Below, piece by piece: positions 21,078 through 38,720 of a stretch of DNA of 64,000 nt. Position 1 is the stretch's first letter. Each line of letters starts with the position of its first letter. The stretch is from contig JANNXA010000036.1 of assembly GCA_031409275.1 (NCBI GenBank), positions 57,839-121,838 on the forward strand. The letters run 5' to 3'. Both the position numbers and the translations under genes were made by a program. The notes beneath the pieces are model-generated. The model was not told the DNA's origin, did not search any database, and was given only the letters and a program-made list of their open reading frames with translations. The DNA is from Planctomycetota bacterium. Its GTDB lineage: Bacteria; Planctomycetota; B15-G4; SIAN01.

Positions 21078-22595
21078 GTGCTGATGCGACCGTCCGCATG
21101 GGGAGTCGAGCTCACGGGTGGCGCCGTGCGTGCCGTCAGGGTGCAGCGACGCGGCCAGAAATTCGCGATCGTCGACGTCGTCGATCAACCCGTGAGCCCG
21201 CCCGGCGAGGGCGCCGAGGAGCTCTCCGCCCATCTGCCAGACGCCGTCGGGCGCGCCCTCACCGACTTGCTTCAAGCGCGCCGCGGCACGCTCGGGGATG
21301 CGATCTTCGTCGCGCTGCCGGTCTTCGGGGCGAAACACGGTCGGGTCGACGTGCCGGTCACCGATCCAGCGCGGGCGCCGGGCCTGCTCGAATTCGAACT
21401 GCATCAGGCGATCGCGGTCGACCTCGACGGCTGGATCGTTCGCACCACGCCGCCGCGGCGACGCGAATCGCAGACGACCTCGTGCGACTACTTCGCCCAG
21501 CGCCGCACGCTCGTGTCGAGTTTCGTCGCGGACTTGCGTCGATTCGGGCTGCCGCTCGATGGACTGATGCCGGGCCCACTCGCGCTTGCCCGCTACGTCG
21601 ACGCCGAGTGGCCGCATCCGGGGCGACGGTTGGCGATCGAGTGTCAGCGCACGCGAACGGATCTGCTCGTCCTCGACGGGGAACGGGACCGCCACTGGCG
21701 CTCGCTTCCGTTCGGCTGCGGGACGCTGGCCGATCTACCGGTGGGAGCCGCGAGTCGCGAGCGCGACGCGACGCGCACTGCGACGCAACTCGTCCGTGAA
21801 CTGCGCGAGGCCCATGCAACGTGGTTCGGGCCGCACGACGGCAGAACCCTCGATCGCGTCATCTTGCTGGGCGAAGGCACGCGACACGAAGAGCTGCGCC
21901 GCGCGCTCGAGCGCGAGCTCGGGCAACCGATCGTCACTCCTCACTTGCCGCGCCGCTTCAGCGTGAGTTCCCGCGCCGCGCCGCATCACCCGCTGCAATT
22001 CGGAACCGCGCTCGGTCTCGCGATGGCGGCGCTGTCGACCGCGCCCGAACCGTGGTCGCTGCTCCCAGCGTCGCGAACGCGAAGTGTCGCACGCACGCTG
22101 CCGGCCTGGAGCGCGGCGCTATTCGTGATCGCGATCGGATTGCTGGCCACCGGAACGCTGGCGCAGCGCGAGCGGACGACGCTGCGCACGCAACTCGCCG
22201 AAATCCAGAAGAAGACCGACTTCGGTGCGCACACGGACTGGGCCGCCGCACTCGCGACGGCGGAGCGCGCCACCGAGGAGACACGCGCGTTGATCGCTGA
22301 GGCGGCGCTCGTCCGCCGCCGCTTGCCGTTCCCTGGCGCGCTGTTGAAGGCGATGTCCGACCCGGCGATCTTCTTCCGGCTCATCGACTGCGAGCTGGTG
22401 CCAGGCGACTCCGCCGACAGCGCGCGGCTGGTTTTCGAAGTCGACGAGGGTCTCGTCGGAGCGATCGCCTCGATCCGAGCGTTCCTGGCGGAAAAGGCCG
22501 CCCTCTCCGTGACCTCGGTCGAGGAGCAGCGCAGCGATGACCGCGTCCTGCGCTTGACGATCGTTGCCGCGATGACGCACGGGAGCTCGTCATGA
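21078..22595 (+). CDS. PilM-like actin-fold domain fused to PilN-like TM/periplasmic domain
   Basis: WGVELTGGAVRAV, TDLLV...RSLPFG, RVILLGEG, FGTALGLA, then WSLLP (resembling PilN INLLP), a TM helix and a coiled coil; first gene ahead of a secretin. Confidence 0.65.
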   Translation: MLMRPSAWGVELTGGAVRAVRVQRRGQKFAIVDVVDQPVSPPGEGAEELSAHLPDAVGRALTDLLQARRGTLGDAIFVALPVFGAKHGRVDVPVTDPARAPGLLEFELHQAIAVDLDGWIVRTTPPRRRESQTTSCDYFAQRRTLVSSFVADLRRFGLPLDGLMPGPLALARYVDAEWPHPGRRLAIECQRTRTDLLVLDGERDRHWRSLPFGCGTLADLPVGAASRERDATRTATQLVRELREAHATWFGPHDGRTLDRVILLGEGTRHEELRRALERELGQPIVTPHLPRRFSVSSRAAPHHPLQFGTALGLAMAALSTAPEPWSLLPASRTRSVARTLPAWSAALFVIAIGLLATGTLAQRERTTLRTQLAEIQKKTDFGAHTDWAAALATAERATEETRALIAEAALVRRRLPFPGALLKAMSDPAIFFRLIDCELVPGDSADSARLVFEVDEGLVGAIASIRAFLAEKAALSVTSVEEQRSDDRVLRLTIVAAMTHGSSS

Positions 22596-23395
22596 GAGCG
22601 CTCCTGTTCGTCATCGCGCTCGCGACGCTCGGCTGGGCGGGCGCCGATTTCTGGCACAAGACGCGACCGATGCTGGCGGAACTGCCCGACCTGCGCGACC
22701 GAGTCAGCGCGCAGCTCACGGACGGCATCGGGCGCGCGCGCGCACTCGGGACGTCGCCGCCACGCGCAAGCGAGGTCGAGGCGGCGCGACGTGCGGCTGC
22801 GGACTGCCTCGCCGAGACCGCCGCGCTGGCGAATCGCTGGTACTCGGGCGCACGGAGCGGCTCCGACTACCTCCAGCCGCGAGCGATGCGGCCGAATGGC
22901 GAAACCGGCGCCGCACTGCGTCGGCGGCTCGAAGAGCTGCTGCTCTCGCTGCCGGTCGACTTGAAGAAGCTCCCCGCCTCGACGCCGATTCGACTCGGCC
23001 TGCTGACGCCGTCGTTGACTCGATCGCTCGACCTTGCCGCACCGGAGTTCGAGGATCAGGTCGAGCGCGCCGTCGTCGCCAGCTTCCTTGCGGACACCTT
23101 GCGCAGCGCGACCGCGATCGCAATCGACGACGTCAGCGCGATTCGCAACGGCGACGGTCAACTCGAACTGCGGTTGCGCGCGACGGGATCGCTCGACGAC
23201 GTGGTCGCGCTTGGAGACGCGCTCGTGGCCGCGACCGACGCCGTCCCGCCTCGTCGCCTCATGCAGTACCACCTGCGCTGCCTGGAGCAGGCGGAATGGA
23301 GTTCGAAGAGCGCCGACCTCGCTTCGCCCCCGCTGCAACTCGAGATGGCCATCGCCTTCTGCTTTCCTTCGACAGTCGGGGAGGGCGCGCGATGA
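22592..23395 (+). CDS. Putative PilO-like protein
   Basis: N-terminal TM, helical region, C-terminal alpha/beta domain; ATGA-coupled; call is mainly positional. Confidence 0.45.
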   Translation: MRALLFVIALATLGWAGADFWHKTRPMLAELPDLRDRVSAQLTDGIGRARALGTSPPRASEVEAARRAAADCLAETAALANRWYSGARSGSDYLQPRAMRPNGETGAALRRRLEELLLSLPVDLKKLPASTPIRLGLLTPSLTRSLDLAAPEFEDQVERAVVASFLADTLRSATAIAIDDVSAIRNGDGQLELRLRATGSLDDVVALGDALVAATDAVPPRRLMQYHLRCLEQAEWSSKSADLASPPLQLEMAIAFCFPSTVGEGAR

Positions 23396-24489
23396 AGCTC
23401 GGTGACACGAACGGAACCGGAACGAGTCGGTCGCAGGCGGCGCAGGCACGCTTCGTCGGGCCGCTGTTGTTGACAGCGTTTCTGGGCGCAGGTACGGTTC
23501 CCGCCCTGCTTTTCTGGTTCCAGCAGGCGAGGGAGCGGGAGTTTCGCGGCCTCCAAGGGGAGCTCGACCTGCAGCTTCGGAGCGGAACGACGGAACGCCG
23601 CGAAACGCTGCCGACCCGAGTGTTGGACGAGCGCGAAGCGCCGACTCAGTTCCAGCTTCCGGAGCGCAGTTCACTCCACTTCCGCAGCGAGCTCGCCTTT
23701 TCTGCCGCGCAGATCGAGTCGTTCCGCGCCAAGCGTTCACGCGAAGGAGAATTCGAGCGCGCGCTGAATCCTCCGACTTCGCTGGCGGCGACCGTTCGTT
23801 CGGGGGCGATCGAGCTTTCGTGGGAGCCGCCAGTCGATCTCGACCAGGTTCGGGATCGGCTGCAGGGCCAGCCGTTACTGCGTTTGGGGTTCCGGGTATA
23901 CCGCTGGCGCGAGGGTGATGAGCCGAAGCTGCTCACCACGTTCGAAGGCGGCAAGACAGCATTTCAGGACCGCGACCTGCCTCTTTGGCGGGAGCGGTTC
24001 TTCTACTGTGTGGCGACGGTGCTCGAAGGCACGATCGGCGAACTGCCGACCCTCATCGAAAGCAAGCGCTCCTCGGTGATCACGGCTGACACTCTCGAGC
24101 AGTTCACCCTGCGGGTCCTCGATGGCGAGGCGGACCATGTCCGCTGCGCGCTCGAGGCCTCGCTTGACGGACGGCGCCACGAACTGACCTTTGACGTAGC
24201 GGTCGGCCATCCGATCGTTCCGCCGCCCGCGGCCGACCTCGACGCCGAGGAGGCCGTCCGCCTCGACACCGGACTCACCGTGGAGTCGGCGCGGTGGATC
24301 GACGGTACGCTGTCCGTCTTGCGACAACGCCCTGAGTTCTTGCCGGACGGACGGCGCAAGCTCGATCCGGCCAGCGGTGCTCCAACGTTTCGGTCCGAGT
24401 CGGGCAGTGTGCCGACGCGAACTCTCGAAGTGACCTGCCGCGATCGTTCCGGTGCAACCCGGACCTTCACATCGGCTGCCCCGAACTGA
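23392..24489 (+). CDS. Membrane-anchored protein with fibronectin type III-like domain (PilP position)
   Basis: Start ATG 23392; TM; NPPTSLAATVRSGAIELSWEPP...GFRVYRW...FQD...YCVATV. Confidence 0.6.
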   Translation: MKLGDTNGTGTSRSQAAQARFVGPLLLTAFLGAGTVPALLFWFQQAREREFRGLQGELDLQLRSGTTERRETLPTRVLDEREAPTQFQLPERSSLHFRSELAFSAAQIESFRAKRSREGEFERALNPPTSLAATVRSGAIELSWEPPVDLDQVRDRLQGQPLLRLGFRVYRWREGDEPKLLTTFEGGKTAFQDRDLPLWRERFFYCVATVLEGTIGELPTLIESKRSSVITADTLEQFTLRVLDGEADHVRCALEASLDGRRHELTFDVAVGHPIVPPPAADLDAEEAVRLDTGLTVESARWIDGTLSVLRQRPEFLPDGRRKLDPASGAPTFRSESGSVPTRTLEVTCRDRSGATRTFTSAAPN

Positions 24490-24544
24490 TAGACCTATAG
24501 GGATTCGGCCGTTCCTCGGTGCGAGGAACCTGGAGATCCAGAAG

Positions 24545-27130
24545 ATGCGAACGAGCCCACCTCTCCTCGGCGCGCTGACGGCGGCTTCGCTGTCCGTGAT
24601 CGGCGGTTGCTCCACGCACCCCGACGGAGCGACGTCGTCACCTGCCGGTGGCAACGACGCCACCGCTCCGGTTGCCACGAACGTCGCGCCGAATGTGGCC
24701 GCGGCCACACAAGACGCCGGCAGCCTGCGCGCGCAGAAAGTCGCGACGCTCGTCCAGGGCTATCTCGACAGCGCGAAGACGGCGCTTGCTCGCGGCGACG
24801 CCGAGGCGGCGCACGCGGCGCTGCTCGACGCGTATGAGATCGACCCCGGAAACCTCGAGGTCAAGAACCTCCTCGACTCGGTCGGCGTGCAGCTTGGCAA
24901 GCGGCCGAGCACCGTGGGCGATGTGGCTCGCGCGGCGGCCGACCAGGATCGCGTGCGACGCGCCCAGGCTCGACTCGAAGTCGAGAACAAGCTCGTCGAA
25001 TCGGATCAGCGCCGAGTGCAGGGCGACTTCGATGCCGCCATCCGCTCGCTGCAAGACGCCGAACTGATCCTCCGCTGGAATCCCTACCTCGGTGGCACCA
25101 CCGACATGGGAGTGACCGAAGAGTCGCTGCGCCAGCGCATCGCGGAACTGACGGCCGCGCGCGCCACGCAGGAGCGTGATGCGACGGCCGAGCGCGAGCA
25201 GCGTGCGCTCGCCGAAAAGGCGGCTCGCGAGGCCGAAGAGCGCGAACGCGCGCAGAACCTCGTCAACCGCTTCTTGCGCCAGGCCAACGACGCCTTCTAT
25301 GCCGAGCGCTACAAGGAAGCCGCCGCCTTCTGCGACCAGGTTCTCGACCTCCAGCCGCAGCACGTCGAGGCGACCGAGCTCAAGCTCACCGCGCAGCAAG
25401 CGTGGCACTCCGCCGAGCAGGATCAGTATCGAACCGCCTACAAGGACCACTGGCGCGAGATCTTCGACCAGATCGATCTCATGAACACGCCGGTCACCGA
25501 GGACATCTCGTTCCCGGCCAAGGCCGACTGGGAGAAGATCCGCAAGCAGGGCCCGATCCACTTCCGCCTTCAGGGTGAGCAGATCAAGCCCGAAGATCAG
25601 CGGATCTGGGACATCCTCAACAACACGCGCGTCGAGCTGAACTTCAACGAGACCAAGCTGCCGGACGCTGTCGAGTGGCTCCACGTCAACACCGGCATCA
25701 ACTTCATCATCGATCAGCCGGTCCTTGACGCTGGCACCGACACCGGCGCCGCCTTGACCGTCGCCTCGATCACCGCCAAGGGCGCGCTCGAGCTGATCTC
25801 GACGGTCTATGGCGTGCTCTACGTCGTGCGCGACGGGGTGATCACGATCATCACCAAAGAGACGGCGAAGGGTGGCGAGTACATCGAGATCTACGACGTG
25901 CGCGACCTCATCAACAAGGTCGCCTCGTTCCCCTCCACCGACTTCAACCTCTCTCCGTCGGGTGCGGTCGACGAGGAACCGCCGGAAGCGCCCGAGCCCA
26001 CTCCGTTCGTCATCGAGGGCGATGCGCTGCGCGACCTGATCACGAACAACATCGACCCGTCGACGTGGGAAGGCAACACCAACGTCACGATGAACCTGCA
26101 GCAGTCGGGCGCTCTCGTCGTGCGCCAGACGGCCGACGTCCACGCCAAGATCGATCAGCTGCTCTCCGACCTTCGCGCCAACGCCCGCACGATGGTCAAC
26201 ATCCAGACGCGCTTCCTCTCGCTCGAAGATCGCTTCCTCGAGGACATCGGCGTCGACTTCCGCGGGCTGAATGGGCAGAACGGCTCGTCCTCGACCGCCT
26301 CGGTGCCGAACATCGTCCTCGACGATCAGGGCACGCCGGGATCGGGCGGCGTCGGCTCGCCCGGCGCTCCGAGTGGCATCGGCACCGGCAACGATGCAGG
26401 TGCCTTCTTCACCGAGAACGGCGGCGACTTCAATGCACGCGGCCGGCTCGAGAATCTCTACGACCTGTCGCTCGGCGATGAGAGCTTCCGCGCCTCGGGT
26501 GGCGCCTCTATCGAGTTCACCTACTTCGACGACACCATCGCCGAAGCGATCCTGCGAGCGGTCACCAAGACGACCCAGTCGGAAGTGGTCCATGCTCCGA
26601 ACCTGACCGTGTTCAACGGCCAGCGCGCCCACATCAACGTCCTGAACCACATCAGCTACGTGCAGGATTTCGAGGCAGAGATCGCGCAGGGCGCCGTGAT
26701 CGCCGACCCGATCGTGAAGGTCCTCCGCGATGGCCCGACGCTCGACGTGCGTCCGGTCGTCTCCTCTGACAAGCGCTTCGTGACCATGGAAGTTCGGCCG
26801 ACGCTGCTCGACCTCGTCGAGCCGATCGCGACCTTCCGTACCTCGCTCGCAGTCGGCAACGAAGTCGAGCTGCAGCTGCCGATCCTCAAGATCCAGCGCC
26901 TGCGCACGACGGTGACGATCCCCGACGGTGCGACGCTCATGCTCGGCGGCATGAAGTCGCTGGTCGACAAGCGGCTCGACTCGGGGATCCCGTTCCTGAA
27001 GGACATTCCGCTGGTCTCGTTCTTCGCTAGCCGCAAGGGCACCGAGAAGAGCAAGACGAAGGTCATGATCTTGGTGCGTGCCAAGATCATCATCCCGGAG
27101 GAGTACGAGCCTTCGACCTCGCGCAACTGA
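24545..27130 (+). CDS. Lipoprotein secretin 1 (PilQ/GspD superfamily) with helical TPR-like N-terminus
   Basis: Start ATG 24545, leader ending VIGGC; STN/N-domain-like FNETKLPDAVEWL and YDVRDL; VNIQTRFL, APNLTVFNGQRA, LDVRPVVS, TVTIPDGATLMLGG, GIPFLKDIP. Confidence 0.9.
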   Translation: MRTSPPLLGALTAASLSVIGGCSTHPDGATSSPAGGNDATAPVATNVAPNVAAATQDAGSLRAQKVATLVQGYLDSAKTALARGDAEAAHAALLDAYEIDPGNLEVKNLLDSVGVQLGKRPSTVGDVARAAADQDRVRRAQARLEVENKLVESDQRRVQGDFDAAIRSLQDAELILRWNPYLGGTTDMGVTEESLRQRIAELTAARATQERDATAEREQRALAEKAAREAEERERAQNLVNRFLRQANDAFYAERYKEAAAFCDQVLDLQPQHVEATELKLTAQQAWHSAEQDQYRTAYKDHWREIFDQIDLMNTPVTEDISFPAKADWEKIRKQGPIHFRLQGEQIKPEDQRIWDILNNTRVELNFNETKLPDAVEWLHVNTGINFIIDQPVLDAGTDTGAALTVASITAKGALELISTVYGVLYVVRDGVITIITKETAKGGEYIEIYDVRDLINKVASFPSTDFNLSPSGAVDEEPPEAPEPTPFVIEGDALRDLITNNIDPSTWEGNTNVTMNLQQSGALVVRQTADVHAKIDQLLSDLRANARTMVNIQTRFLSLEDRFLEDIGVDFRGLNGQNGSSSTASVPNIVLDDQGTPGSGGVGSPGAPSGIGTGNDAGAFFTENGGDFNARGRLENLYDLSLGDESFRASGGASIEFTYFDDTIAEAILRAVTKTTQSEVVHAPNLTVFNGQRAHINVLNHISYVQDFEAEIAQGAVIADPIVKVLRDGPTLDVRPVVSSDKRFVTMEVRPTLLDLVEPIATFRTSLAVGNEVELQLPILKIQRLRTTVTIPDGATLMLGGMKSLVDKRLDSGIPFLKDIPLVSFFASRKGTEKSKTKVMILVRAKIIIPEEYEPSTSRN

Positions 27131-27240
27131 GACCCTGACGCCTCCTGCGCAAGGCGGGCCGAACCTGCCTCCCCCACCCGCGTTCTGAAGGAGCGTGGGT
27201 CCTTCTCCGGTCCAAGGCTGGAATTGGCAGAAGCTGCCGG

Positions 27241-27283: not shown

Positions 27284-27296
27284 TGGAGCCTCTCAC

Positions 27297-30191
27297 ATGT
27301 CGAATCGACTCTGGAAGTCGTGGTGGGCGTTCGGCTTGCTGGCACTTGCGACGCCCGCTCGCGCGCAATCCTGGGAACTCCAGGATGAGATCGGGTTCGC
27401 CAAGAACATGGCGCGCTATCGCCTGTTCGACCTCGCAACCGAGCACATCCAGAACATCGAGAAGGGCAACCTCACGGCAGAGGACCGCAACGCGTGCCTC
27501 TACGCACGCGCCTTCATCGAGAAGCTCGGCGGCGACTTCGACACGACGCCTGAGGGACGTCTGTCACTGCTCAAGTCCGCGATCGGCCACTACAACGAGT
27601 TCCTCGGCAAGATCGGCGCCGACAACAAGAACGGCGATGACGCGCGCTCCGAAGCGGCCGCCTGCCAGCGCAAACTCGGTGCGCTCTATGCAGAGCTCGC
27701 CGCAGCCGGCACGGATGCCGAAGCGAACAAGAAGGAAGCGGAGACCGCGTTCCGGGCCGCCGTTCAACAGCTGAACGCGTTGCACAACGCTCGCCTGAAG
27801 AAGTACGAGGCGATGCCGGAGGAAGAGGAAGACCCCAACGCCGATCCGAACGAGCCGACCCCTCGCTCTGCGAAGGATGAGGCGAAGATCGACGCCTTCG
27901 AGCCGGTCTACGAGCTCGCCGCCACCTACTACGACTGGGCGCAGCTCTATCCCGAGAACGACCTCAATCGGCAGGACTACCTGAAGAAGTCGCTCGAGCA
28001 GACCACAACCTACACGTGGGAACTCGGCGCCGAGACCATCCGCAGCTACGACGTGAACTTCTACGCCGGGCTCGCGAACATCGGATTGAACCAGCTCGAT
28101 GACGGACTCGCGATGCTCGAGTACGTCGTCAGCGCCGAGACCGGCGTGCCCGCGGTCATCGAGAACAACCCCGACCTGCCTCCCGACGTCGTCGGAGAGC
28201 TCACGCGGATGGTCGAGAAGACCTACCGCGAACTCGCGCAGATCTACAACAAGCAGACCAAGTACGCTGAAACCGACAAGCTGCAGGCGCGCGTCGAGGA
28301 GTACTACAAGAAGTTCTCCGCGCGCGGCGCCCAGCGGACCAACGTAGGCGAACTGTTCCTGCTCGAGGTCGGAGTCGCGCGCTTCAAGGCGGGCAACCCC
28401 AACGGCATGAAGCTGCTGGAGGAGATCGCCAAGCGCAACCCCGGCAACGAGGTCGGCCAGAAGGCCGGCGAGCTCATGGCCGACGCAATCCGGAGCAACG
28501 CGGGGGTCGGCGGAGCGGTCGGCAAAGTCCCGCCGAGTACCTGGATCACGACGGCCGATGCCGCCCGCAACCAGAACAAGATGTTGGACGCGATCGACAG
28601 CTACCACAACGCGATCGGCTCGCTCGAACTCGTCACCGATGCCAAGGAGCGCACCAACCTCGAGATCGCCTGCTGGTCCGACATCGGGACCTGCTACCGC
28701 AGCATGTCGCGCCACGTCGAGGCTTCCTTCGCGTTCCAGGAGGGCCTCACGCGCTGCGCCGGAGCGACCGGAATCGATGAGGAGACGGTCCAGCAGGTTG
28801 GCATCGCCTGGTACAACACGCTCGTCTCGCGCTTCAAGGAGACGAAGGACGATGCCGACAAGCGCGCGAAGGACAGCGCGCTCCGCAAGCTCGCCAGCGA
28901 CTTCAAGGTCAAGAACACCGAGTACCTGGTCGCCAAGGATGAGTTCGAACAGGCCCGCGTGCTCCCCGCCGAGAAGAAGGACGAACGGCTGAAGGCGTTC
29001 GCCGAATGCGCGCAGAAGCTCGGCGCGATCAAGGACAGCGACTCGAACTACGATCGCGCGCGCATCCTGCTCGCGCGCTGCCACGGGGAACAGGGCGAAG
29101 TCGACCCCAAGAAGTGGGAGACGGCTCTCACGACGCTCGACTCGTTCGACAAGTACGCGAAGGAGAACGAGACTCCGGCCGACAAGGCGCGCATCGTCAA
29201 TCGCGAAGTCAGCCGCACCGAGTCGACCTACTACCGCTCGGAGTACCTCCTCGACCTGAAGCGCCACGCCGAGGTGCTCGACGTCCTGAAGAGCTTCGAG
29301 AAGGACTTCCCTGCGCAGAAGGACTTCTACGCGGAGGTCAACTACCGCCGCCTGATGTCGCTGCTGGCGCTGAATCGTTTCCCCGAGGCCGAGTCGCTCT
29401 TCATCGACGTGACCAAGCAGATCGAGTCAGGCGCCCTCAAGCCCTGGCGCGACTCGGCCGGCTACTGGCTGGCGCGCGGCTACCTTGACGCTGGCGAGAA
29501 GGAAGCCGACGCGGCCAAGCAAGGCGCGCTGCTCGCCAAGGGTGCCGAGCTGATGACGGCCTACTGCCGCGCCACGGCGTACCAGAGCTACAACAACCTG
29601 CTCTCCGCCGCTGAGACGTGGGCCCGCATCAAGAACTGGGCGAAGGCGGAGGAGACCTATCGCAAGCTGATCGACGTCTTCGGCAAGGAAGCGCAGTACA
29701 AGGAGAACATCGATCTCCGCGTCCGGCGCACGCTCGCCGACGTGCTGATGAATCAGCGCAAGTTCTCCGACGCCGCGCCGCTGTTCCGGGAGCTCGAGGT
29801 TCGCTTCGCCAAGGACCCGGCGCTGCTCGGACAGGCCGCGCGCTGCTATGGCGGCTGGGTCGAGATCGTCGACCGCAAGGCGGTCGAGGTGCCGGGCGCG
29901 GGCGACTACAAGCGCGCCGTCGACCTCTGGAAGATCCTGATGGAGAAGGGCTTCAAGAAAGAGGACGAGAAGGTCACCCCTGCCTGGTTCGACGCGAAGT
30001 ACCTCTCGATCTATGCGCGCTACCGCGCGAAGGAACTCGACCCTGCGTACCTCCAGGAGGCGCAGGCGCTGATCGGCAACTTCAAGAACAACGTCTGGGA
30101 CTTCCTGAAGGACGAGCCTGACTTCTTGACCCGCATCGGCGGCGAAGAGGGCAAGCGCCGCTGGGAGTACCTGTTCGAGCGCCTCCAGTAG
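27297..30191 (+). CDS. Large exported TPR/alpha-solenoid protein (964 aa)
   Basis: Start ATG 27297 after GGAG; signal peptide ending ATPARA; all-helical TPR-like repeats; Lys-rich. Confidence 0.8.
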   Translation: MSNRLWKSWWAFGLLALATPARAQSWELQDEIGFAKNMARYRLFDLATEHIQNIEKGNLTAEDRNACLYARAFIEKLGGDFDTTPEGRLSLLKSAIGHYNEFLGKIGADNKNGDDARSEAAACQRKLGALYAELAAAGTDAEANKKEAETAFRAAVQQLNALHNARLKKYEAMPEEEEDPNADPNEPTPRSAKDEAKIDAFEPVYELAATYYDWAQLYPENDLNRQDYLKKSLEQTTTYTWELGAETIRSYDVNFYAGLANIGLNQLDDGLAMLEYVVSAETGVPAVIENNPDLPPDVVGELTRMVEKTYRELAQIYNKQTKYAETDKLQARVEEYYKKFSARGAQRTNVGELFLLEVGVARFKAGNPNGMKLLEEIAKRNPGNEVGQKAGELMADAIRSNAGVGGAVGKVPPSTWITTADAARNQNKMLDAIDSYHNAIGSLELVTDAKERTNLEIACWSDIGTCYRSMSRHVEASFAFQEGLTRCAGATGIDEETVQQVGIAWYNTLVSRFKETKDDADKRAKDSALRKLASDFKVKNTEYLVAKDEFEQARVLPAEKKDERLKAFAECAQKLGAIKDSDSNYDRARILLARCHGEQGEVDPKKWETALTTLDSFDKYAKENETPADKARIVNREVSRTESTYYRSEYLLDLKRHAEVLDVLKSFEKDFPAQKDFYAEVNYRRLMSLLALNRFPEAESLFIDVTKQIESGALKPWRDSAGYWLARGYLDAGEKEADAAKQGALLAKGAELMTAYCRATAYQSYNNLLSAAETWARIKNWAKAEETYRKLIDVFGKEAQYKENIDLRVRRTLADVLMNQRKFSDAAPLFRELEVRFAKDPALLGQAARCYGGWVEIVDRKAVEVPGAGDYKRAVDLWKILMEKGFKKEDEKVTPAWFDAKYLSIYARYRAKELDPAYLQEAQALIGNFKNNVWDFLKDEPDFLTRIGGEEGKRRWEYLFERLQ

Positions 30192-30339: not shown

Positions 30340-31446
30340 GTGAGGAACAGCTCTCTCTTCTTGGCGCTCGTGGCCGCGGTGGCGGCCCCGTCGGCACGTG
30401 CGGATGAAATCCTCCAGAAGAGCGCCAAGAACCCGTTCAAGGGAACGGTGCAGTCGGAAGACATCAACAAGGTCAAGTACAAGCTTGACGGCGTCGCGCA
30501 GGTGCAGGAGATCGACTCCGCGCTGGTCGCCGACATCACCTACGACGACGCGCCGGAGGCCTTCACGAAGGGCAAAGAGTTGCTGAAGAAAGGCGACGCG
30601 GAGAACGCGGCCAACAGCTTCCGCCTCGCGCTGAAGTCGAAGACGAAGAACAACTGGATCAACGTCTACGGCAACTACCAGCTCGGCGTCGCGCTGCAGA
30701 TGTGGGGCGCGAAAGACGCCACCAAGCTCAAGGAAGCAGCGACAGTCTTCGCTCAGCTGTTGAAGGACTCGCCCGAGTGCCGCTTCATGCCGGACGCACT
30801 GAAGCGCGGCGCCGATGCGCTCGCCGCGAGCAAGGATGCCGCCGGTGCCGCCGCTCTCTACGATCGCCTCGCGGAGGTCGCGCAGCAGAAGAAGCTCGGC
30901 ATCCTCTGGGAAGCTGAGGCGCGAATCCGCAAGGCGGACGCCTACGTGACCGCCGGGATGACCAAGGAGGCGGAAGCCGCCTACGCCGCGGCCGGAAGCT
31001 TCGCCGACTCGAACGCCGCGACGCAAAAGGACGAGCCGACGAAGCGCTTGCTGCTGGCGATCGTCGGACGCGCCCAGCTCTCCCAGGGTGGCGCGCTGCT
31101 GCGAAACAAGAAGTTCGCCGAAGCGCGCCAGTTCTTCGAGAAGGTGGCGATGGGCGCCAACGCTCAGTCTGACGTCATCGCCGCGGCGCTCAACGGCGTC
31201 GGCGAAGTCCTGCTCGAAGAGGGCAAGCCCAAAGAGGCGCTGGAGCGGTTCGCTCGGGTTCGCGTCCAGTACTACCTCGCCCGGGAAGAGGCGGCCCGCG
31301 CGACGTACTTCCTCGGTAAGACCTGCCTCGCCCTCAAAGATGCCGAGCCGAACGGCAAGAAGAAGGCGGCCGATTACTTCGCGGAAGTGGTCGAACGCTA
31401 CGGCGACACCCCGTGGGCCGATCGCGCCCGCGCGGAGATCAAGTGA
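30340..31446 (+). CDS. Exported TPR protein with N-terminal small beta domain
   Basis: Start GTG 30340; signal peptide ending APSARA; TPRs ending YFAEVVERYGDTPWADRA (CpoB/BamD-like tail). Confidence 0.8.
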   Translation: MRNSSLFLALVAAVAAPSARADEILQKSAKNPFKGTVQSEDINKVKYKLDGVAQVQEIDSALVADITYDDAPEAFTKGKELLKKGDAENAANSFRLALKSKTKNNWINVYGNYQLGVALQMWGAKDATKLKEAATVFAQLLKDSPECRFMPDALKRGADALAASKDAAGAAALYDRLAEVAQQKKLGILWEAEARIRKADAYVTAGMTKEAEAAYAAAGSFADSNAATQKDEPTKRLLLAIVGRAQLSQGGALLRNKKFAEARQFFEKVAMGANAQSDVIAAALNGVGEVLLEEGKPKEALERFARVRVQYYLAREEAARATYFLGKTCLALKDAEPNGKKKAADYFAEVVERYGDTPWADRARAEIK

Positions 31447-31549: not shown

Positions 31550-32275
31550 ATGACCCTCAAGAAGCTCGGTTTCACGATGCTCACGCTCGCTGCGGCATTC
31601 GCAGTCTCGGGCGTCGCCTTCGCTCAGGATGCTGCCAAGCCGCCTGACGTCTCCTTCTCCATCTCCGAGATCCTGCGTGACGGTGGCTCGATCGGCCACT
31701 TCATCCTCGTCGTCTCGGTGATCGCACTTGGCGTGTCGATCGACTTCGCAGTCAACATCCGGCGCGTGAAGATGTGCCCGCCCGAAATCGTTGAGGAGAT
31801 CGAGGCGCTCTTCGAGGCCGGCGACTATCAGGAAGCGGTCGACCTCTGCGAGGCCGAGCCGACCATGTTCACCAATGTCGTCGCCGCAGGGCTCTCGAAG
31901 GTCAATCACGACTTTGCGACCATCGAGTCGGCACTCGGCCAAGCGATCGAAGAGGAGTCGGTCAAGCTGCACACGAAGGTCGGCTGGCTCTCCTTCATCT
32001 GCTCGGCCTCGACCCTGCTTGGCCTGCTCGGCACCATCCAAGGCATGATCGTCGCGTTCAAGACGATTGCCGCCACGAAGGGCCAGGCCGACCCGTCGAT
32101 GCTCTCGGGCGGTATCTCCGCCGCGCTCATCACGACGCTGTACGGTCTCTGCATCGCGATCCCGGTCTCGTTCTCGTTCGTCATCTTCCGCAACCGCGTG
32201 ATCGCGACGACGATGGAGATCGGCACGATCATCGAAGAGCTCTTCGAGCGCTTCCGAACCAAGGCCGCTGCTTGA
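31550..32275 (+). CDS. MotA/TolQ/ExbB proton-channel family protein
   Basis: Start ATG 31550 after AGGAG; cleavable-looking leader (VAFA-Q); LLGLLGTIQGMIVAF, GISAALITTLYGL. Confidence 0.92.
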   Translation: MTLKKLGFTMLTLAAAFAVSGVAFAQDAAKPPDVSFSISEILRDGGSIGHFILVVSVIALGVSIDFAVNIRRVKMCPPEIVEEIEALFEAGDYQEAVDLCEAEPTMFTNVVAAGLSKVNHDFATIESALGQAIEEESVKLHTKVGWLSFICSASTLLGLLGTIQGMIVAFKTIAATKGQADPSMLSGGISAALITTLYGLCIAIPVSFSFVIFRNRVIATTMEIGTIIEELFERFRTKAAA

Positions 32276-32344: not shown

Positions 32345-32827
32345 ATGAAGAAAGGCAGCATGCCGTCGATGTCGTTCGAACTCGACATGACGCCGATGAT
32401 CGACTGCACGTTCAACTTGCTGATCTTCTTCATCCTGGTGGTCGACCTCGGCCAGCAGGAGCTCGAAAAGGTCACCCTGCCGCGTGCTTCTCAGTTCCAG
32501 AAGGACGACAAGAACGAGAAGGGGCGCAAGGTCGTCAATCTTGACATTGAAGGGACCATCAAGGTCAAGCGCCGTCCCTTCGCGCTCGAGCAGCTGCGCA
32601 CCGATTTGAAGATCTGGTCGGACATGTACCCGCGTGAAGAGAACGGCCTCTGCAGCAAGTCGATCCTCATCCGGACCGACCGCGGTACCGAGATGAAGCA
32701 CGTCCAGAAAATCATGCAACTGTGCGGCGAGAAGGGGTTGCAGATCTACAAGATCGAACTCGCTTGCTCAGAGGACGCCACCGGCTTCCACGCCGTGGAG
32801 ACGCCAGGCAAGAAAGGGCTGGAGTAA
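32345..32827 (+). CDS. ExbD/TolR family protein 1
   Basis: DMTPMIDCTFNLLIFF TM with conserved Asp; ILIRTDR...VQKIM periplasmic fold. Confidence 0.9.
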   Translation: MKKGSMPSMSFELDMTPMIDCTFNLLIFFILVVDLGQQELEKVTLPRASQFQKDDKNEKGRKVVNLDIEGTIKVKRRPFALEQLRTDLKIWSDMYPREENGLCSKSILIRTDRGTEMKHVQKIMQLCGEKGLQIYKIELACSEDATGFHAVETPGKKGLE

Positions 32828-32830
32828 GCC

Positions 32831-33307
32831 ATGGGCAGCAAGAACAAGGAAATGGCGGAGTCGATCTTCACGCTCGACATGACCCCGATGATCGATTGCA
32901 CGTTCAACCTGCTGATCTTTTTCCTCTGCAACATCAACTTCAAGCTGCTCGAAGGGAAGATCCCGGCGTACCTGCCGAAGGACGTCGGCGTGAACAACTC
33001 GCCGATCACCAAGGAGCTCGAGAAGATCGAGATCCGGATCACGCGCAGCGCGTCGCCGAACGTCAAGGACAAGAACTGGTCCTGGCACGAGAACCAGATC
33101 TCGATCAACGTGCAGGGCAAGCGGATGGCGGGTCTCCAGGATTTCTACACCACGATCAAGCGGGTGCATGAAGCCAACAAGGAGGCGAAGGCCACGCTCT
33201 ATCCGGGCAAGCAGACGCTCTACATCGACAGCGTGAAGGTGATCAACGAGTGCCTGCGGGCGAACTTCGTGGACATCACGTTCGCCGGCACGCCGATGGA
33301 CAGCTGA
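32831..33307 (+). CDS. ExbD/TolR family protein 2
   Basis: Same DMTPMIDCTFNLLIFF TM; YLPKD; VKVINECLRANFVDITF. Confidence 0.88.
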   Translation: MGSKNKEMAESIFTLDMTPMIDCTFNLLIFFLCNINFKLLEGKIPAYLPKDVGVNNSPITKELEKIEIRITRSASPNVKDKNWSWHENQISINVQGKRMAGLQDFYTTIKRVHEANKEAKATLYPGKQTLYIDSVKVINECLRANFVDITFAGTPMDS

Positions 33308-33608
33308 ACCGACGCCGATGAACCGGCGCTCATGAGTGGAGCTGCGCGACCGCGCGAAGGCTCTTCGAACCACGGGACGCAGCGAACGAACTGAACTGGA
33401 TACCGACCGAGGGGCTGGTGCTCGATGCGCCAGCCCCTCGTGTTTTCGCCCGCAGGCGGCGCGACCCCCGGCGAAACGAACCTCTCGAACGCGGCCCGAG
33501 GCTAGGCTCAGCCTCGAGGGCAGACCCCATCGGACGTTGGAGCGAGCGATCAAACGGATCGAACTCGTACTGGAGCGGCGCCCCGCCTCGAAGGCGCCGG
33601 CCAATGCC

Positions 33609-35624
33609 GTGCGGGAAGGCGTCGAGTCGACCCTTCGTTCATGCGCATCGCTCCTCCTGGTCGGCACCGTCCTCTTCGGTTGCGACGCGCGCAGCAACGC
33701 CGACCGCCCACGCCACCTGCTGCTCGTCTCGATCGACACGATGCGCGCCGATGCCATCGTCCCGGACTCGCCGTGCCGCGCGAGCACGCCGACGCTCGAC
33801 GAACTCGCCACCCGCGGTCGGCGCTTCGAGAACGTCTGGTCGCATGTCCCGCTCACGCTGCCTTCGCACGCAACGCTCTTCACCGGCCGGCTGCCGCAAG
33901 AACTCGGGCTTCACGACAACGCCCCGTTCCCGCTCCGCGGCGACGTCGACACGTTGGCGACGCTGCTCCACGACGCTGGATTCGCGACGGACGCCGTGAT
34001 CGGCGGACAACCGCTCGGGAACGGCTGCGGTCTGGAACGCGGATTCGAGCAGTACGACGTCCCAGCGCGTGGCAACGCTGGCGCGACGCTGTTTGTGGAG
34101 CGCAATGCGGTGAAAGTCACCGACCGCGCTCTCGCCGCGTGGCAGCGGCCGGCAACGTCCGCTCGCGGTCGCTTCCTCTTCGTCCACTACTTCGACGCGC
34201 ACCACCCCTACCTGCCGCCGGCGAACTGCCTGCGCGGCGACCCAGACGACCCCGCCGCCCGCTACCGCGGCGAGATCACCTTTGTCGACCGTGAATTCTC
34301 CCGACTGCTCGCGCGCATCCGCGCCAGTGGCGAGCGCTGCCTCGTGGTCGTCACCTCCGACCACGGAGAGGGGTTGGGCGACGGGGGCGAGTCGACCCAC
34401 GGCTTCCAGCTACTGCCATCGACGCTGCGCGTGCCCCTGATCGTCGCCGAGATCGAGGGGGCGCGCACGAGCGCCCCGGCGCCGCTCGCCACCGCGCAAG
34501 CCACTCGATTGATCGGACTCGTCGATCTGCTCCCGACGATGTTGCGACTGCTTGAAGTCGCCGCTCCCGCAACCCTCGATGCGATCGCGGGTCGTGCGCT
34601 GCAGGAGCCCGAAGTCGAGCCGCGCGCTCAGTACGTCGAGTCGCTCTCCGCGGCGCTCCAGTTCGGCTGGGCGCAGCAGTCGGGGGTCAGGGGTAGCGGC
34701 GCGTTCCTGCTCCATCTCGGCGCCGATCCGCCCCCCACCGTCGGCGACTTGCGCGTGCTTTCATTCGACGAGAGCGACGAGCGTTGCCTGGTGGATGCCA
34801 GCCGCGGCGATCCGAGCGTGGCCGAGCTCGCGGCGTGGCGCGAGCGCTTCGATGAGACGCGGACGCGCAAACTGCCGCGCTCGAGCGAGCGCGCGAGTCA
34901 GCGCGCGCTCCAGTCGCTCGGCTACCTCCCCGGTTCGAGCGACCGCAGTCGACACGATCTACTGCCGCTGACCGAGAATGCCCTTCGTCCGTCGCCGCTG
35001 GCACGCCGCGACGAGATCGAGCAGTTGCTGCATGCTGTCGCGCGACTGGAGGCGGGCGAAGCACTCGGAGCCGCTTCGAGCCTCTCGAAGCTCCTCAAAG
35101 CCGATCCCGAGCAGCTCGCCGCACGTTTTTTTCGCGCACGTGCGCGCCTCGCGCTCGAAGAGCTCGATCAAGGTCGGTCCGGCGCCTTCGCACGCGAGGC
35201 GGTCGCCGACCTCGCGCGCGTCGTCGCTACCGCACCGGACTATCCAGGCGCGGCTCTCCTTCACGCCAAAGCGCTCGCTCTCGCGGGCGACTTCGATGCC
35301 GCACGCGCCGCGCTCACCGACCGGTCGGCCGTCGCGGCGGAACTCGATTCGGAGGCCGCCGATCGGGAGGAACTCCTTGGAAGCCTGCTGCTCGAGCGAG
35401 CACGCGGCGGGCGCGCGAATCCGTGGTTCGATGCCGAGCAGGGGTTCGAACACCTGCTCCGCGCCATCGAGCTCGATCCCGAGCGCCTGGCGCTCGCGCG
35501 AAAGCTCGATTCCCAGCTCGCGGCTTTGGCGCGAACGCCCGACGCTCCGCCATGGGTCGCTGTCGCGCGTGAACGGTTCCGCCGCCGCCGCGGTCGCCGT
35601 TACCGCGCCCGTCCCGCCCGCTAG
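33609..35624 (+). CDS. Sulfatase-like (alkaline phosphatase superfamily) lipoprotein with C-terminal TPRs
   Basis: Probable GTG start 33609 (uncertain), leader ending LFGC; LLVSIDTMRAD, VPLTLPSHATLFTG, HYFDAHHPY, TSDHGE, LQSLGYL. Confidence 0.8.
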   Translation: MREGVESTLRSCASLLLVGTVLFGCDARSNADRPRHLLLVSIDTMRADAIVPDSPCRASTPTLDELATRGRRFENVWSHVPLTLPSHATLFTGRLPQELGLHDNAPFPLRGDVDTLATLLHDAGFATDAVIGGQPLGNGCGLERGFEQYDVPARGNAGATLFVERNAVKVTDRALAAWQRPATSARGRFLFVHYFDAHHPYLPPANCLRGDPDDPAARYRGEITFVDREFSRLLARIRASGERCLVVVTSDHGEGLGDGGESTHGFQLLPSTLRVPLIVAEIEGARTSAPAPLATAQATRLIGLVDLLPTMLRLLEVAAPATLDAIAGRALQEPEVEPRAQYVESLSAALQFGWAQQSGVRGSGAFLLHLGADPPPTVGDLRVLSFDESDERCLVDASRGDPSVAELAAWRERFDETRTRKLPRSSERASQRALQSLGYLPGSSDRSRHDLLPLTENALRPSPLARRDEIEQLLHAVARLEAGEALGAASSLSKLLKADPEQLAARFFRARARLALEELDQGRSGAFAREAVADLARVVATAPDYPGAALLHAKALALAGDFDAARAALTDRSAVAAELDSEAADREELLGSLLLERARGGRANPWFDAEQGFEHLLRAIELDPERLALARKLDSQLAALARTPDAPPWVAVARERFRRRRGRRYRARPAR

Positions 35625-35747
35625 TGCATCCCCGTTCCGCTCTCCACGTCCACCGCCGGATGCACGGCTAGGCAGCATTGCCGCCAGCAGCTTTGGGCGC
35701 ACTGCTAAACCCGTACACGAGAACGAGTTAGGTCCAGGTTTTTGGCG

Positions 35748-35776
35748 TTGACCACTCACAAGGGTCGGCCTAACCT
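35748..35776 (+). promoter_or_regulatory. Sigma70-like promoter for secretin 2
   Basis: TTGACC-N17-TAACCT in a 400-bp intergenic region. Confidence 0.55.
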
Positions 35777-36032
35777 ACCGCGCTCTTTCCCGGGCGCCGG
35801 CAGGGCGTTTTGCTCGGGACCGCGAGGGACCACCGCGAGGGATTTCAGGGAATTGGCCGACGGCTGGGAGCGCGCACTGCTTCGCGCGCGCTCACGATTC
35901 ACACCAGCGTGGCTTGCTCCTTGGGTCTTTCGCCTGCGACCTTCGCGGGCGCTCTTCACGAGCGCTTCTGCCGCCAGGGAAACCACGAACGCCTCGGACG
36001 GGATGGCCTCCGCCAGTCGGGAGACGAACAGA

Positions 36033-38639
36033 ATGTTGAGCTCCGCTCGCACGACGCAGCGCTTGCTGTACGCAACCCTAGCCGCCACGGCGCTTGGCGC
36101 TTGCTCTTCGTCGGATGAGTCCACCGTTTCACCGACGGCTGCGACGTCGAGCACCGCGATGCCCGACGCCAGCGTCGGCGCGGCGTCGACGGCCGCAGCG
36201 CCTCAAGCCGGTGCGCAGTCGCTCGCTCAGCAGAAGCAGCAGTTGATGCTGACTTCGGCGATGGACAACGCTCGCGCCCTGCGCGAGAGCGGCGACCTCG
36301 CCGGCGCACGCCGTCAACTCGAACAGGCTCTCTCGATCGAGCCGGGCAACGCCGAAGCGACCGCTCAGTACTTCGAAGTCCTCGAGCTGCTCGGTGAGCG
36401 GCCGGGTGACATCGGCACGGCACGCCAGCAAGCCGAGGATCGCTCCGCAGTCTCCAAGCAGCAGTTGAAGCTCGAGGCGGAGGAGTACCACCGGGTCGGT
36501 CAGGATGCTCGCAGCCGGCGCGAGTTCGACAGCGCGATCCGCTGGTTCGAACGCGTCCAGCAGTCGATCCGCTGGTCGACGCTCGACGTCGAATGGGGCG
36601 ACCTCGCCACTCGCAACGACGAGGCGCTCGCTGCGGCTCGTCGTGAACGTGACGAGGCGATCCAGAGCGACCGTGAAACGAAGCTGAAGGAAGCGGTCCA
36701 GCAGATCCGCGGCGATGAAGAGGCTGAGCGCGCGCGCCACATGAACCGCGTCGCGGGCCTCCTCGAGAGCGCGAACTACAAGTTCGAAGCCGCGGACTAC
36801 GTCGGCGCGATGGAACTGTGCGATCAGGTCCTCACCATCGAGCCGAGCAACACGACGGCTCATGAGCTCAAGCGTGAAGCGAACTCCGGCCGACGCTCCA
36901 AGCGCAGCGCCGAGTTCGCCAAGCACCGCAGCGAAGCATTCCGCAAGTTCAAGTCGGACATCGAAGAGCTGCGCATCCCGTTTTCCGACGGGCTGACCGC
37001 GGCCGATCCTGACTACTGGGCTCGTGTCACGGCGCGCACGGCCACTGGGGCCGGTGGCGCCGACGCCGCCGCGGTCGAAGATCAGCGAATCAAGGAACAG
37101 CTCAAGTCGGTGCGAGTGCCGATCGTCGATTTCACCGACGCGGACCTCGACGCCGTCTGCACGCAGCTCTCCAACTGGTCGGGTCTCACGATTCGGGCGA
37201 CCGAGACGGTTCGCTCGGAGGTCGAGTCGAACTCGACCCTGATCCAGCTCACCAACCTCACCAACCTCTCGCTCGACTCGCTGCTGACCATCGTCACCAA
37301 GCGCCTCGGCGAGAAGTTCGCGTGGACGGTGACCAACGGCATCGTCCAGATCACGACGCTCGAGGACGCGTTCGGCGCGACCAAGATCCGGACCCACGCG
37401 ATCCAGGACCTCACCTTCGGCCGGACCGACTTCAAGGGGCCGGAGATCAACAAGATCGCGTTGCCCGGCGAATACGGTGACGACGCCGAGACCTCGGTCT
37501 TCGCGGCCGACCTCGACAAGGTCATCCAGATCACGCCAGAAGACATCGTCACGTTGGTGAAGGAGAACGTGGCGCGCGAGACCTGGGAGCTCGGCGACAA
37601 GAAGTTCTCGATCGAACCCGCCGCCAGCAATCAGATCCTCGTGATCCACACCGCCGAGGTGCAGGACGAGATCGAAGCGTTCCTGAACGACCTGCGTCGC
37701 TTCACGACCACCGTCGTCCAGATCGAGAGCCGCTTCGTCGAGGTCACCGACGCCTTCATCCAGGAAATGGGTGCGGACTTCCGCGGCCTCGGTGGCGTCT
37801 TCGGCTCGAGCGTCACCCTCGATGACACGACGTCGGCGGGCGAGGACATCGCCAGCCGCGGCCTCGACAACCTCGGCACCGGGTCGACCGGCAGCTCGGC
37901 GCCCAGCGCCGGCATCTTCTTCAATGACAACTCGGACGGCGACATCCGCGGCCGCACCGAGAACTACTTCGACTCGCCGCTCGGCTCGATCCTCTCCACC
38001 ACCGGTGGCGGCTCGTTCCAGTTCGGCCTGCTCGATGACACGCAGTTCAACCTCGTCGTGACCGCCGTCGACAAGTCGGTGAACGCCGTCGAGGTGATGG
38101 CCCCCGAACTCACCGTCTTCAACACCGAGCGCGCCTACGTCACGGTGCTGAACGAGGTCTCCTTCCTCCAGGACTTCGACGTCGACGTCGCGAACACCGC
38201 GTTCATCGCCAACCCCGAGATCGGCATCCTCCAGGAAGGCGTGGTCCTCGACGTGCGCCCGACGATCTCCTACGACCGCAAGTACGTCACCCTCGACGTG
38301 CGCACGACGGTCGCCACGATCCAGCGCCCGATCGACACCTTCGAAACGACGCTGGGCGGCTTCTCGGACGCAGTCACGTTCCAGCTCCCGCGACTTGAAG
38401 TGCAGAACGCCAACACGACGGTCATCGTGCCCGACGGCGGCGCCGTGATCCTAGGCGGGCTCAAGACCTTGAACTACGTGAACCGCCGCGCGGAAGTGCC
38501 GTGGGTCTCGCGGATTCCTCTGCTCGGCTTCTTCTTCCGCCAGAAGGGCGTGGCGGACGAGTCGAAGAGCCTGGTCATCTTGGTCAAGGCGAACATCAAG
38601 GACCTGAGCCGCTTCCGCGAGGACGCTCCAGTCCGCTGA
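36033..38639 (+). CDS. Lipoprotein secretin 2, full-length paralog of secretin 1
   Basis: Start ATG 36033 after GGAG; lipobox LGAC; VQIESRFV, APELTVFNTERA, LDVRPTIS, TVIVPDGGAVILGG, VPWVSRIPLLGFFF. Confidence 0.9.
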   Translation: MLSSARTTQRLLYATLAATALGACSSSDESTVSPTAATSSTAMPDASVGAASTAAAPQAGAQSLAQQKQQLMLTSAMDNARALRESGDLAGARRQLEQALSIEPGNAEATAQYFEVLELLGERPGDIGTARQQAEDRSAVSKQQLKLEAEEYHRVGQDARSRREFDSAIRWFERVQQSIRWSTLDVEWGDLATRNDEALAAARRERDEAIQSDRETKLKEAVQQIRGDEEAERARHMNRVAGLLESANYKFEAADYVGAMELCDQVLTIEPSNTTAHELKREANSGRRSKRSAEFAKHRSEAFRKFKSDIEELRIPFSDGLTAADPDYWARVTARTATGAGGADAAAVEDQRIKEQLKSVRVPIVDFTDADLDAVCTQLSNWSGLTIRATETVRSEVESNSTLIQLTNLTNLSLDSLLTIVTKRLGEKFAWTVTNGIVQITTLEDAFGATKIRTHAIQDLTFGRTDFKGPEINKIALPGEYGDDAETSVFAADLDKVIQITPEDIVTLVKENVARETWELGDKKFSIEPAASNQILVIHTAEVQDEIEAFLNDLRRFTTTVVQIESRFVEVTDAFIQEMGADFRGLGGVFGSSVTLDDTTSAGEDIASRGLDNLGTGSTGSSAPSAGIFFNDNSDGDIRGRTENYFDSPLGSILSTTGGGSFQFGLLDDTQFNLVVTAVDKSVNAVEVMAPELTVFNTERAYVTVLNEVSFLQDFDVDVANTAFIANPEIGILQEGVVLDVRPTISYDRKYVTLDVRTTVATIQRPIDTFETTLGGFSDAVTFQLPRLEVQNANTTVIVPDGGAVILGGLKTLNYVNRRAEVPWVSRIPLLGFFFRQKGVADESKSLVILVKANIKDLSRFREDAPVR

Positions 38640-38680
38640 TCGCAGTCGCGAGCTGACCGCTCGCACCAGACGCAGTATCC

Positions 38681-38720
38681 TCGGGCCCGCGACGTTCGAC
38701 GTCGCGGGCCCGATTTGTTT
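38681..38720 (+). terminator. Intrinsic terminator after secretin 2
   Basis: TCGGGCCCGCGACGT-TCG-ACGTCGCGGGCCCGA followed by TTTGTTT. Confidence 0.85.

What the first reader, a model, noticed from the sequence alone, without database searches (positions are those of the whole stretch)
21078..38720. Candidate ion-motive-force-powered secretin machine: PilMN/O-like + two secretins + TPR scaffolds + ExbB/ExbD/ExbD
Seen: eleven co-oriented genes - PilM-PilN-like fusion, PilO-like, FN3 protein, secretin 1, 964-aa TPR, 368-aa TPR, ExbB/TolQ, two ExbD/TolR, sulfatase-like TPR and secretin 2 - closed by a strong terminator. No pilin, prepilin peptidase, PilB/PilT/GspE, PilC/GspF, TonB or TonB-dependent receptor occurs in the window. 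Known: secretins normally serve ATP-driven T2SS/T4P or T3SS; ExbBD/TolQR normally drive TonB/TolA; one TolQ-like plus two TolR-like subunits with TPR partners is the layout of the Myxococcus Agl-Glt gliding motor. Inference: a hybrid trans-envelope system in which a proton motor acts through TPR solenoids on a secretin pore, for macromolecule uptake, secretion or surface motility. Caveat: pilMNOPQ operons are often distant from pilB/C/T, and internal promoter-like sites suggest several transcription units.
Basis: partly seen in the sequence, partly recalled or inferred. Interest (0 to 1): 0.8.

Follow-up and report, generated by a model that had tools for sequence, protein, structure and literature searches.

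The report
Proton motor nested between secretin genes
A gene cluster shared by many Planctomycetota puts the genes of an ExbB/ExbD ion-channel motor and two scaffold proteins between two outer-membrane secretin pore genes, with no ATPase or TonB gene beside them; it likely encodes a membrane-potential-powered pore that would pull large polymers into the cell.

Summary
The eleven genes are real and mostly as labelled. Corrections: a terminator-like hairpin follows exbD2, the promoter matches are at chance level, and the 'sulfatase' lacks the sulfatase nucleophile motif. The genome has its own type IV pilus and two type II secretion loci elsewhere, so these two TPR-bearing lipoprotein secretins are surplus. 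The linkage is phylum-wide: secretin and ExbB lie within 7 kb in 34 of 52 Planctomycetota genomes that have both. Fifteen genomes, including cultured Engelhardtia and Rohdeia, keep secretin-TPR-TPR-exbB-exbD-exbD-secretin with no locus-type PilM found. Against obligate coupling: ten genomes keep both secretins without the motor, some lineages scatter the modules, housekeeping neighbours are also conserved, and an ATPase/PilC set without a secretin exists elsewhere. No physical interaction was tested. Best reading (0.5): one ion-driven secretin machine, likely importing macromolecules. It resembles Akkermansia MUL2 plus MUL1 but is not shown to be a member: Amuc_1101 and Amuc_1100 resemble it, while Amuc_1099, Amuc_1102 and Mul1B were not found. 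Gliding is unlikely (no GltG). This scan noted the same cluster in two other genomes (e1-4400791, e1-4946799). Nine literature searches found no description.

The parts
21078..22595 (+). PilM-like actin-fold protein with one TM helix (343-361) and a C-terminal tail (PilM-PilN-like fusion; nearest family Amuc_1101)
22592..23395 (+). Single-TM PilO/Amuc_1100-like protein, 267 aa
   Evidence: Atlas: 15 of 30 hits in clusters with PF28028 on 30% of members, score 0.91; one distant same-slot protein hits Amuc_1100_fam at 7.6e-6
23392..24489 (+). Single-TM protein with an FN3 domain (about 129-233) and a second beta domain, 365 aa
   Evidence: AlphaFold pLDDT 85.9; Foldseek FN3 hits E 1e-6; no match to Amuc_1099_fam
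24545..27130 (+). Secretin 1, 861 aa: lipobox (Cys22), TPR-like helices, long helices, two N domains, secretin core 550-849
27297..30191 (+). TPR1, 964 aa, predicted exported solenoid
   Evidence: signal peptide read by eye
30340..31446 (+). TPR2, 368 aa, predicted exported; nearest families CpoB/YbgF and BamD, below cut-off
31550..32275 (+). ExbB/TolQ-family subunit with N-terminal signal and three TM helices
32345..32827 (+). ExbD1; TM Asp20 invariant
   Evidence: 78 of 78 aligned sequences
32831..33307 (+). ExbD2; TM Asp22 invariant
   Evidence: 78 of 78 aligned sequences
33408..33440 (+). Terminator-like hairpin after exbD2
33609..35624 (+). Alkaline-phosphatase/sulfatase-fold TPR lipoprotein with Thr nucleophile; accessory (absent from the locus in many lineages)
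36033..38639 (+). Secretin 2, 868 aa, lipobox (Cys24); full-length paralog of secretin 1 (30% identity)
38681..38713 (+). Terminator-like hairpin closing the cluster

Best explanation
The cluster likely encodes one envelope-spanning machine in which an ExbB-ExbD1-ExbD2 ion channel would use the membrane gradient to act, through two predicted periplasmic TPR proteins, on two lipoprotein secretins, most likely to import large polymers. Shown: gene content, conserved order, intact ExbD aspartates, secretin fold with an unusual TPR/helical N-terminal arm, no ATPase, pilin or TonB gene at the locus. Inferred: TPR1/TPR2 replace the TonB/TolA transducer and grip the secretin arm; the two old paralogous secretins form a mixed or paired pore; PilM/O/FN3 are an optional inner-membrane scaffold; the cargo is glycan or glycoprotein, by analogy with Akkermansia mul genes.
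For: Motor at the locus in 28 of 37 order-level genomes, four of the misses at contig ends. Secretin family in 183 of 201 phylum genomes. Secretin and ExbB within 7 kb in 34 of 52 genomes with both among handles G041-G100, and in 15 of 22 not used to build the profiles. In 35 of 71 hand-picked phylum genomes the motor lies between two secretins; in 33 loci a secretin directly follows the last exbD. Fifteen genomes keep secretin-TPR-TPR-exbBDD-secretin, and their best PilM-like hit scores 126-228 bits, against 306-479 for 17 locus-type hits and 214 for this genome's canonical PilM. The canonical pilus (C49) and T2SS loci (C52, C55) have their own secretins. Upstream and downstream secretins form parallel clades, 18+18 rows with support 99 and 100. 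Akkermansia: mul genes are needed for periplasmic glycan uptake, MUL2 includes a PilM protein, and ExbD/B are expected MUL1 components (PMC13174399, whole text and supplement passages); Amuc_1098 is the adjacent secretin-type gene (PMC5332112 passages). Planctomycetes have an uncharacterised macromolecule uptake route (PMC5394234 passages).
Against: No interaction or phenotype data. Ten genomes keep both secretins without exbBDD at the locus (G005, G007, G008, G009, G015, G042, G044, G130, G206, G211); five of them that I examined hold a paralogous TPR-TPR-exbBDD cassette elsewhere, with no secretin in the fetched DNA. 18 of 52 genomes show no linkage, partly through fragmentation but also in single-contig genomes G041, G048, G081. 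In G127, G205, G041 and G104 the pil triple, the secretin and the motor cassette lie apart. UDG and HAD neighbours are conserved too (30 and 38 of 71 against 49 for the motor), so slow rearrangement explains part of the synteny. The hairpin after exbD2 may split the unit. The import function rests on analogy: Mul1B matched 1 of 78 TPR2 and 0 of 34 TPR1.
Confidence: 0.5

Rival explanations
1. Two co-regulated but mechanically separate systems: the secretins and PilM/O/FN3 serve an ATP-driven pilus or T2SS-like system built from distant genes, and TPR-TPR-ExbBDD does another job.
For: The genome has a pilB-pilT-pilB-pilC set on C29 and a PilM/O-like plus pseudopilin set on C51, neither with a secretin. 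A TonB on C55 has no ExbBD beside it. Secretins persist without the motor in ten genomes and a motor cassette exists without secretins.
Against: Secretins stay with the motor where the locus-type PilM is not found, in 15 genomes. No ATPase lies near the locus in 5 of 5 genomes checked. Linkage persists in 15 genomes with neither UDG nor HAD in the fetched DNA, some cut by contig ends.
Confidence: 0.2
2. One coupled machine, but for export: the ion motor drives secretion or surface display of proteins through the secretins.
For: Same linkage evidence as the best reading; secretins usually export (established knowledge); TPR2 weakly resembles chaperone-type TPRs such as BamD and PorW.
Against: ExbBD-type motors are best known for import (established knowledge); the nearest studied cluster is tied to glycan uptake (PMC13174399); no substrate genes recur at the locus.
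Confidence: 0.17
3. A structural, Tol-Pal-like role: the motor tightens or remodels inner-to-outer membrane tethers formed by the long secretins.
For: TPR2 matches YbgF/CpoB in 73 of 78 members, the window's copy below cut-off; crateriform structures link both membranes (PMC5394234).
Against: No TolA, TolB or Pal family match among the eleven proteins; a gated pore is not needed for tethering.
Confidence: 0.08
4. An Agl-Glt-like surface motility motor.
For: One ExbB, two ExbD, one large and one small exported TPR mirror AglRQS, GltD and GltE (PMC3169522 passages).
Against: No GltG over cut-off in the genome, only weak N-terminal matches; no Glt/Agl family match for window proteins, GltC in 1 of 78 TPR2; that paper states the core alone does not drive motility.
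Confidence: 0.05

Closest known systems
Akkermansia muciniphila MUL2 (amuc_1099-1102, with secretin-type amuc_1098) and MUL1 (amuc_0543/0544 with ExbD/B)
   Same: PilM-like gene nearest to Amuc_1101, PilO slot resembling Amuc_1100, a secretin next to them; ExbB/D with exported partner proteins.
   Different: All in one cluster; two TPR-armed lipoprotein secretins; Amuc_1099, Amuc_1102 and Mul1B families not found; secretin match to Amuc_1098_fam is C-terminal and far below cut-off; the pil block can be lost.
Type IVa pilus pilMNOPQ / type II secretion
   Same: PilM fold, secretin fold with N domains.
   Different: No ATPase, platform or pilin at the locus; canonical sets with their own secretins elsewhere; motor genes inserted.
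TonB-ExbBD and Tol-Pal
   Same: ExbB/ExbD with the essential Asp; CpoB-like TPR.
   Different: No TonB/TolA, TolB, Pal or TonB-dependent receptor at the locus; two different ExbD.
Myxococcus Agl-Glt core (AglRQS, GltC/D/E/G)
   Same: One ExbB, two ExbD, large and small exported TPR proteins.
   Different: No GltG transducer; secretins in place of OmpA-like outer-membrane Glt proteins; no specific sequence match.

Membership tests
Type IV pilus / T2SS | Secretin | tested here: met
Type IV pilus / T2SS | PilM-type alignment protein | tested here: met
   not found in 15 carriers
Type IV pilus / T2SS | ATPase, platform protein, pilins and peptidase with the secretin | tested here: not met
   none on the window's contig; present elsewhere, so use in trans is not excluded
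Akkermansia MUL2 | Amuc_1101 (PilM-like) | tested here: inconclusive
   best family for 24 of 29 orthologs; distant members 184-205 bits against a 650 cut-off
Akkermansia MUL2 | Amuc_1100 | tested here: inconclusive
   Atlas 0.91; 1 of 8 distant PilO-slot proteins at 7.6e-6
Akkermansia MUL2 | Amuc_1099 | tested here: not met
   0 of 13 genomes over cut-off, no hit at the locus; no positive control genome
Akkermansia MUL2 | Amuc_1102 (MUL2A pilin-like) | tested here: inconclusive
   0 of 13 genomes, but nothing rang in controls; no such gene at the locus
Akkermansia MUL1 | ExbB/ExbD | tested here: met
   MUL1 content from PMC13174399 supplement
Akkermansia MUL1 | Mul1B/Mul1A orthologs | tested here: inconclusive
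   Mul1B: 1 of 78 TPR2 at 1.1e-6, 0 of 34 TPR1, 0 of 5 genomes without a positive control; Mul1A not tested
Akkermansia MUL | Required for glycan import | not testable with these tools
   needs mutants
TonB / Tol-Pal | TonB or TolA transducer with receptor or TolB/Pal at the locus | tested here: not met
ExbBD/TolQR-type motor | Conserved TM aspartate in ExbD | tested here: met
Agl-Glt | GltG (FHA-TM-TonB_C transducer) | tested here: not met
Type I sulfatase | Cys/Ser-x-Pro-x-Arg formylglycine motif (motif recalled) | tested here: not met
   Thr-x-Pro-Ser/Ala-His in 38 of 38

The most novel reading that the evidence does not exclude
This is a secretin channel powered by ion flow rather than ATP: a hetero-ExbD stator drives gating and polymer translocation through TPR solenoids that bind a TPR/helical arm on the secretin itself, with no pilus and no TonB. 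It is the missing macromolecule-uptake machine of many Planctomycetota and a candidate for their membrane-bridging crateriform structures.
Probability: 0.35. Interest if true: 0.92.

Novelty: new variant of a known kind. Interest (0 to 1): 0.72.

Why it matters
Known secretins work with ATPases or injectisomes, and ExbBD-type motors work through TonB/TolA/GltG (established knowledge). A conserved unit with secretins and motor but neither partner would join two machine classes. It names genes for an open question, how Planctomycetota take up macromolecules (PMC5394234), and two cultured strains carry the minimal seven-to-eight-gene form, so it can be tested. It would count as categorically new once coupling is shown.

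Tried and rejected
Complex prediction (secretin N-terminus, both ExbD periplasmic domains, TPR2) was not available; nothing was folded. The VIA wide fold search was busy and not repeated. No RNA holder was listed for 27000-36900, so co-transcription is untested. Davey 2023 and Hughes 2025 are not held; what I say of MUL comes from PMC13174399, PMC5332112 and PMC12570417 passages; details only in those two papers or their supplements may bear on the MUL1 comparison. Literature searches found no description of this cluster; most subscription journals are not covered. PMC11131199 and PMC13119276 passages added only background. The widest secretin alignment was too diverse for the named-genome scan; a narrower one worked (best 80 of 575 kept; no Planctopirus or Gemmata record among the 76 listed, which does not show absence). 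A second PilM-like gene near the locus in some genomes is a paralog, followed by pseudopilin-like genes in G071, not the missing ortholog. One family accession that I recalled was the wrong family. Atlas found only unnamed Planctomycetota clusters for the FN3 protein. The ExbB tree is a quick tree with many open nodes; I use only its well-supported paralog clade. Rejected: recent chance fusion (conserved order), canonical pilMNOPQ (separate set on C49), true sulfatase.
Full report
Observation. The ORF list and translations give eleven co-oriented genes from 21078 to 38639; I reset starts from the sequence. Pfam and NCBIfam identify both secretins, ExbB, two ExbD, the TPR proteins and a sulfatase fold. 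The first three genes needed profiles. The PilM-like family matches Amuc_1101_fam in 24 of 29 members and pilM in 14, and PDB PilM at 1.3e-21; it has one TM helix and a tail, consistent with a PilM-PilN-like fusion. The 267-aa gene has Atlas neighbours carrying Amuc_1100 and T2SSM_b domains. The 365-aa gene folds with an FN3 domain. Secretin 1 models (pLDDT 74.5, pTM 0.48) as a lipoprotein with TPR-like helices, two long helices, two N domains and a secretin core; 125 of 196 family ORFs show a loose Met-lipobox pattern. The ExbD aspartate is invariant in 78 of 78 sequences for both subunits. The promoter scan is at chance level; the two strongest terminator-like hairpins follow secretin 2 and exbD2, the latter echoed in 5 of 7 relatives. 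So two transcription units are plausible. The 'sulfatase' has Thr at the nucleophile position in 38 of 38 orthologs and is absent from the locus in many lineages.

The genome. It is 5.59 Mb, 92.9% complete, and its relatives are labelled Planctomycetota. It has six secretins. C49 holds pilMNO, a 622-aa secretin, pilT/B/C and the peptidase; C52 and C55 hold secretin-ATPase-platform-pseudopilin sets. The window's two are full-length paralogs of each other (30%) and share only the core with the others. Three TonB-dependent receptors and two TonB lie on other contigs. Loose ends that favour the rival: an ATPase/PilC set on C29 and a PilM/O-like plus pseudopilin set on C51 have no secretin beside them.

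Conservation. TPR1 was found in 39 of 41 related genomes. Around it the order UDG-pilM-pilO slot-FN3-secretin-TPR1-TPR2-exbB-exbD-exbD-(sulfatase fold)-secretin-HAD recurs; 28 of 37 have the motor, four misses are contig ends and five are losses at the locus, where the best ExbB elsewhere is 31-33% identical against 44-88% for orthologs. The secretin family occurs in 183 of 201 phylum genomes. In 71 genomes that I picked for score and contig length, 49 have the motor within 9 kb and 35 have it between two secretins. A less biased count over handles G041-G100 gives 34 of 52 genomes with both genes linked within 7 kb, and 15 of 22 among genomes not used for the profiles; the profiles were built from linked members, kin are not independent, and fragmented assemblies inflate the unlinked class. 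UDG and HAD travel with the cluster in 30 and 38 of 71, so some conservation is positional; 15 motor-linked genomes show neither in the fetched DNA. Upstream and downstream secretins form parallel supported clades (FastTree, 66 rows from 32 picked loci plus the window).

Natural deletions. In 15 genomes, including Engelhardtia mirabilis Pla133 (L186) and Rohdeia mirabilis Pla163 (L211), the locus keeps secretin-TPR1-TPR2-exbB-exbD-exbD-secretin without a PilM-like gene; in those two UDG abuts the first secretin. A wide profile finds no locus-type PilM in these genomes (126-228 bits, against 306-479 for 17 locus-type hits); a very diverged copy cannot be excluded. This is the strongest argument that the secretins belong with the motor more than with pilus parts. 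The converse also occurs: ten genomes keep both secretins without exbBDD. Five examined carry a paralogous TPR-TPR-exbBDD cassette elsewhere, a separate ExbB clade, which may substitute or may show that the motor module has secretin-independent work. In families f8, f80, f6 and f44 the pil triple, a longer secretin and the motor cassette are scattered. I did not name these families, so I cannot say whether the model species used for dextran uptake have the joined form.

Mechanism. Shown: parts, order, loss patterns. Inferred: ion flow through ExbB with two different ExbD; no TonB/TolA-like gene at the locus and the single-TM pil proteins are dispensable in some genomes, which leaves the exported TPR proteins as transducers and the secretin's own helical arm as the handle. 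Import is favoured by analogy: Akkermansia needs mul genes for periplasmic glycan uptake, MUL2 has a PilM protein, and ExbD/B are expected MUL1 parts (PMC13174399, whole text and supplement passages); mul1A is called a mucin transport gene (PMC12570417 passages). That Mul1A/B are TPR proteins is recalled, not read. Membership is not shown: Amuc_1099, Amuc_1102 and Mul1B models find no ortholog, without positive controls. Agl-Glt has the same motor-plus-TPR layout but its core includes GltG (PMC3169522 passages), which is not found. Physical coupling and expression remain untested.

Verdict. A real, conserved cluster that fits no tested family fully, and for which nine searches found no description. 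The scan's earlier notes on two other genomes reach a similar reading; I formed mine before that look-up and do not count them as support. Interest 0.72.

Noticed in passing
window 50249-51502 (+): A protein with a weak HEAT match carries a ~40-residue copy of the family-specific secretin hairpin (secretin 1 residues ~694-735, 50-57% identity). The segment is recognisable in 12 of 12 aligned loci including the window's own; 34 of 53 genomes have some match, a few only through the secretin itself. Candidate plug, chaperone or accessory subunit.
   Followed up: partly
G000:C51:221000-234500: Secretin-less cluster of a PilM/N-like gene, a PilO-like gene, a 903-aa gene and pseudopilin-like genes; a similar PilM-like paralog lies within about 15 kb of the locus in several genomes such as G071 and G110.
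   Followed up: partly
G000:C29:20700-25800: pilB-pilT-pilB-pilC set with no secretin nearby.
   Followed up: no
G000:C27:165308-165784 and C51:147476-148675: Lone paralogs of ExbD2 (50% identity) and TPR2 (226 bits); the ExbD2 copy is 6.4 kb from the 468-aa secretin. Extra ExbD copies are common at the locus in relatives.
   Followed up: no
L234-L238: A second cassette type: ~600-aa gene, TPR1, TPR2, exbB, exbD, exbD and a ~300-340-aa membrane protein, with no secretin in the fetched DNA.
   Followed up: partly
window 20166-20993 and 38750-39505: Uracil-DNA glycosylase and a CTE7-type HAD hydrolase flank the cluster across many families; reason unexplained.
   Followed up: partly
L132, L136, L138, L194: Three family secretins in tandem.
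   Followed up: no
G000:C55:171480-174304: TonB-dependent receptor and TonB with no ExbBD beside them.
   Followed up: no
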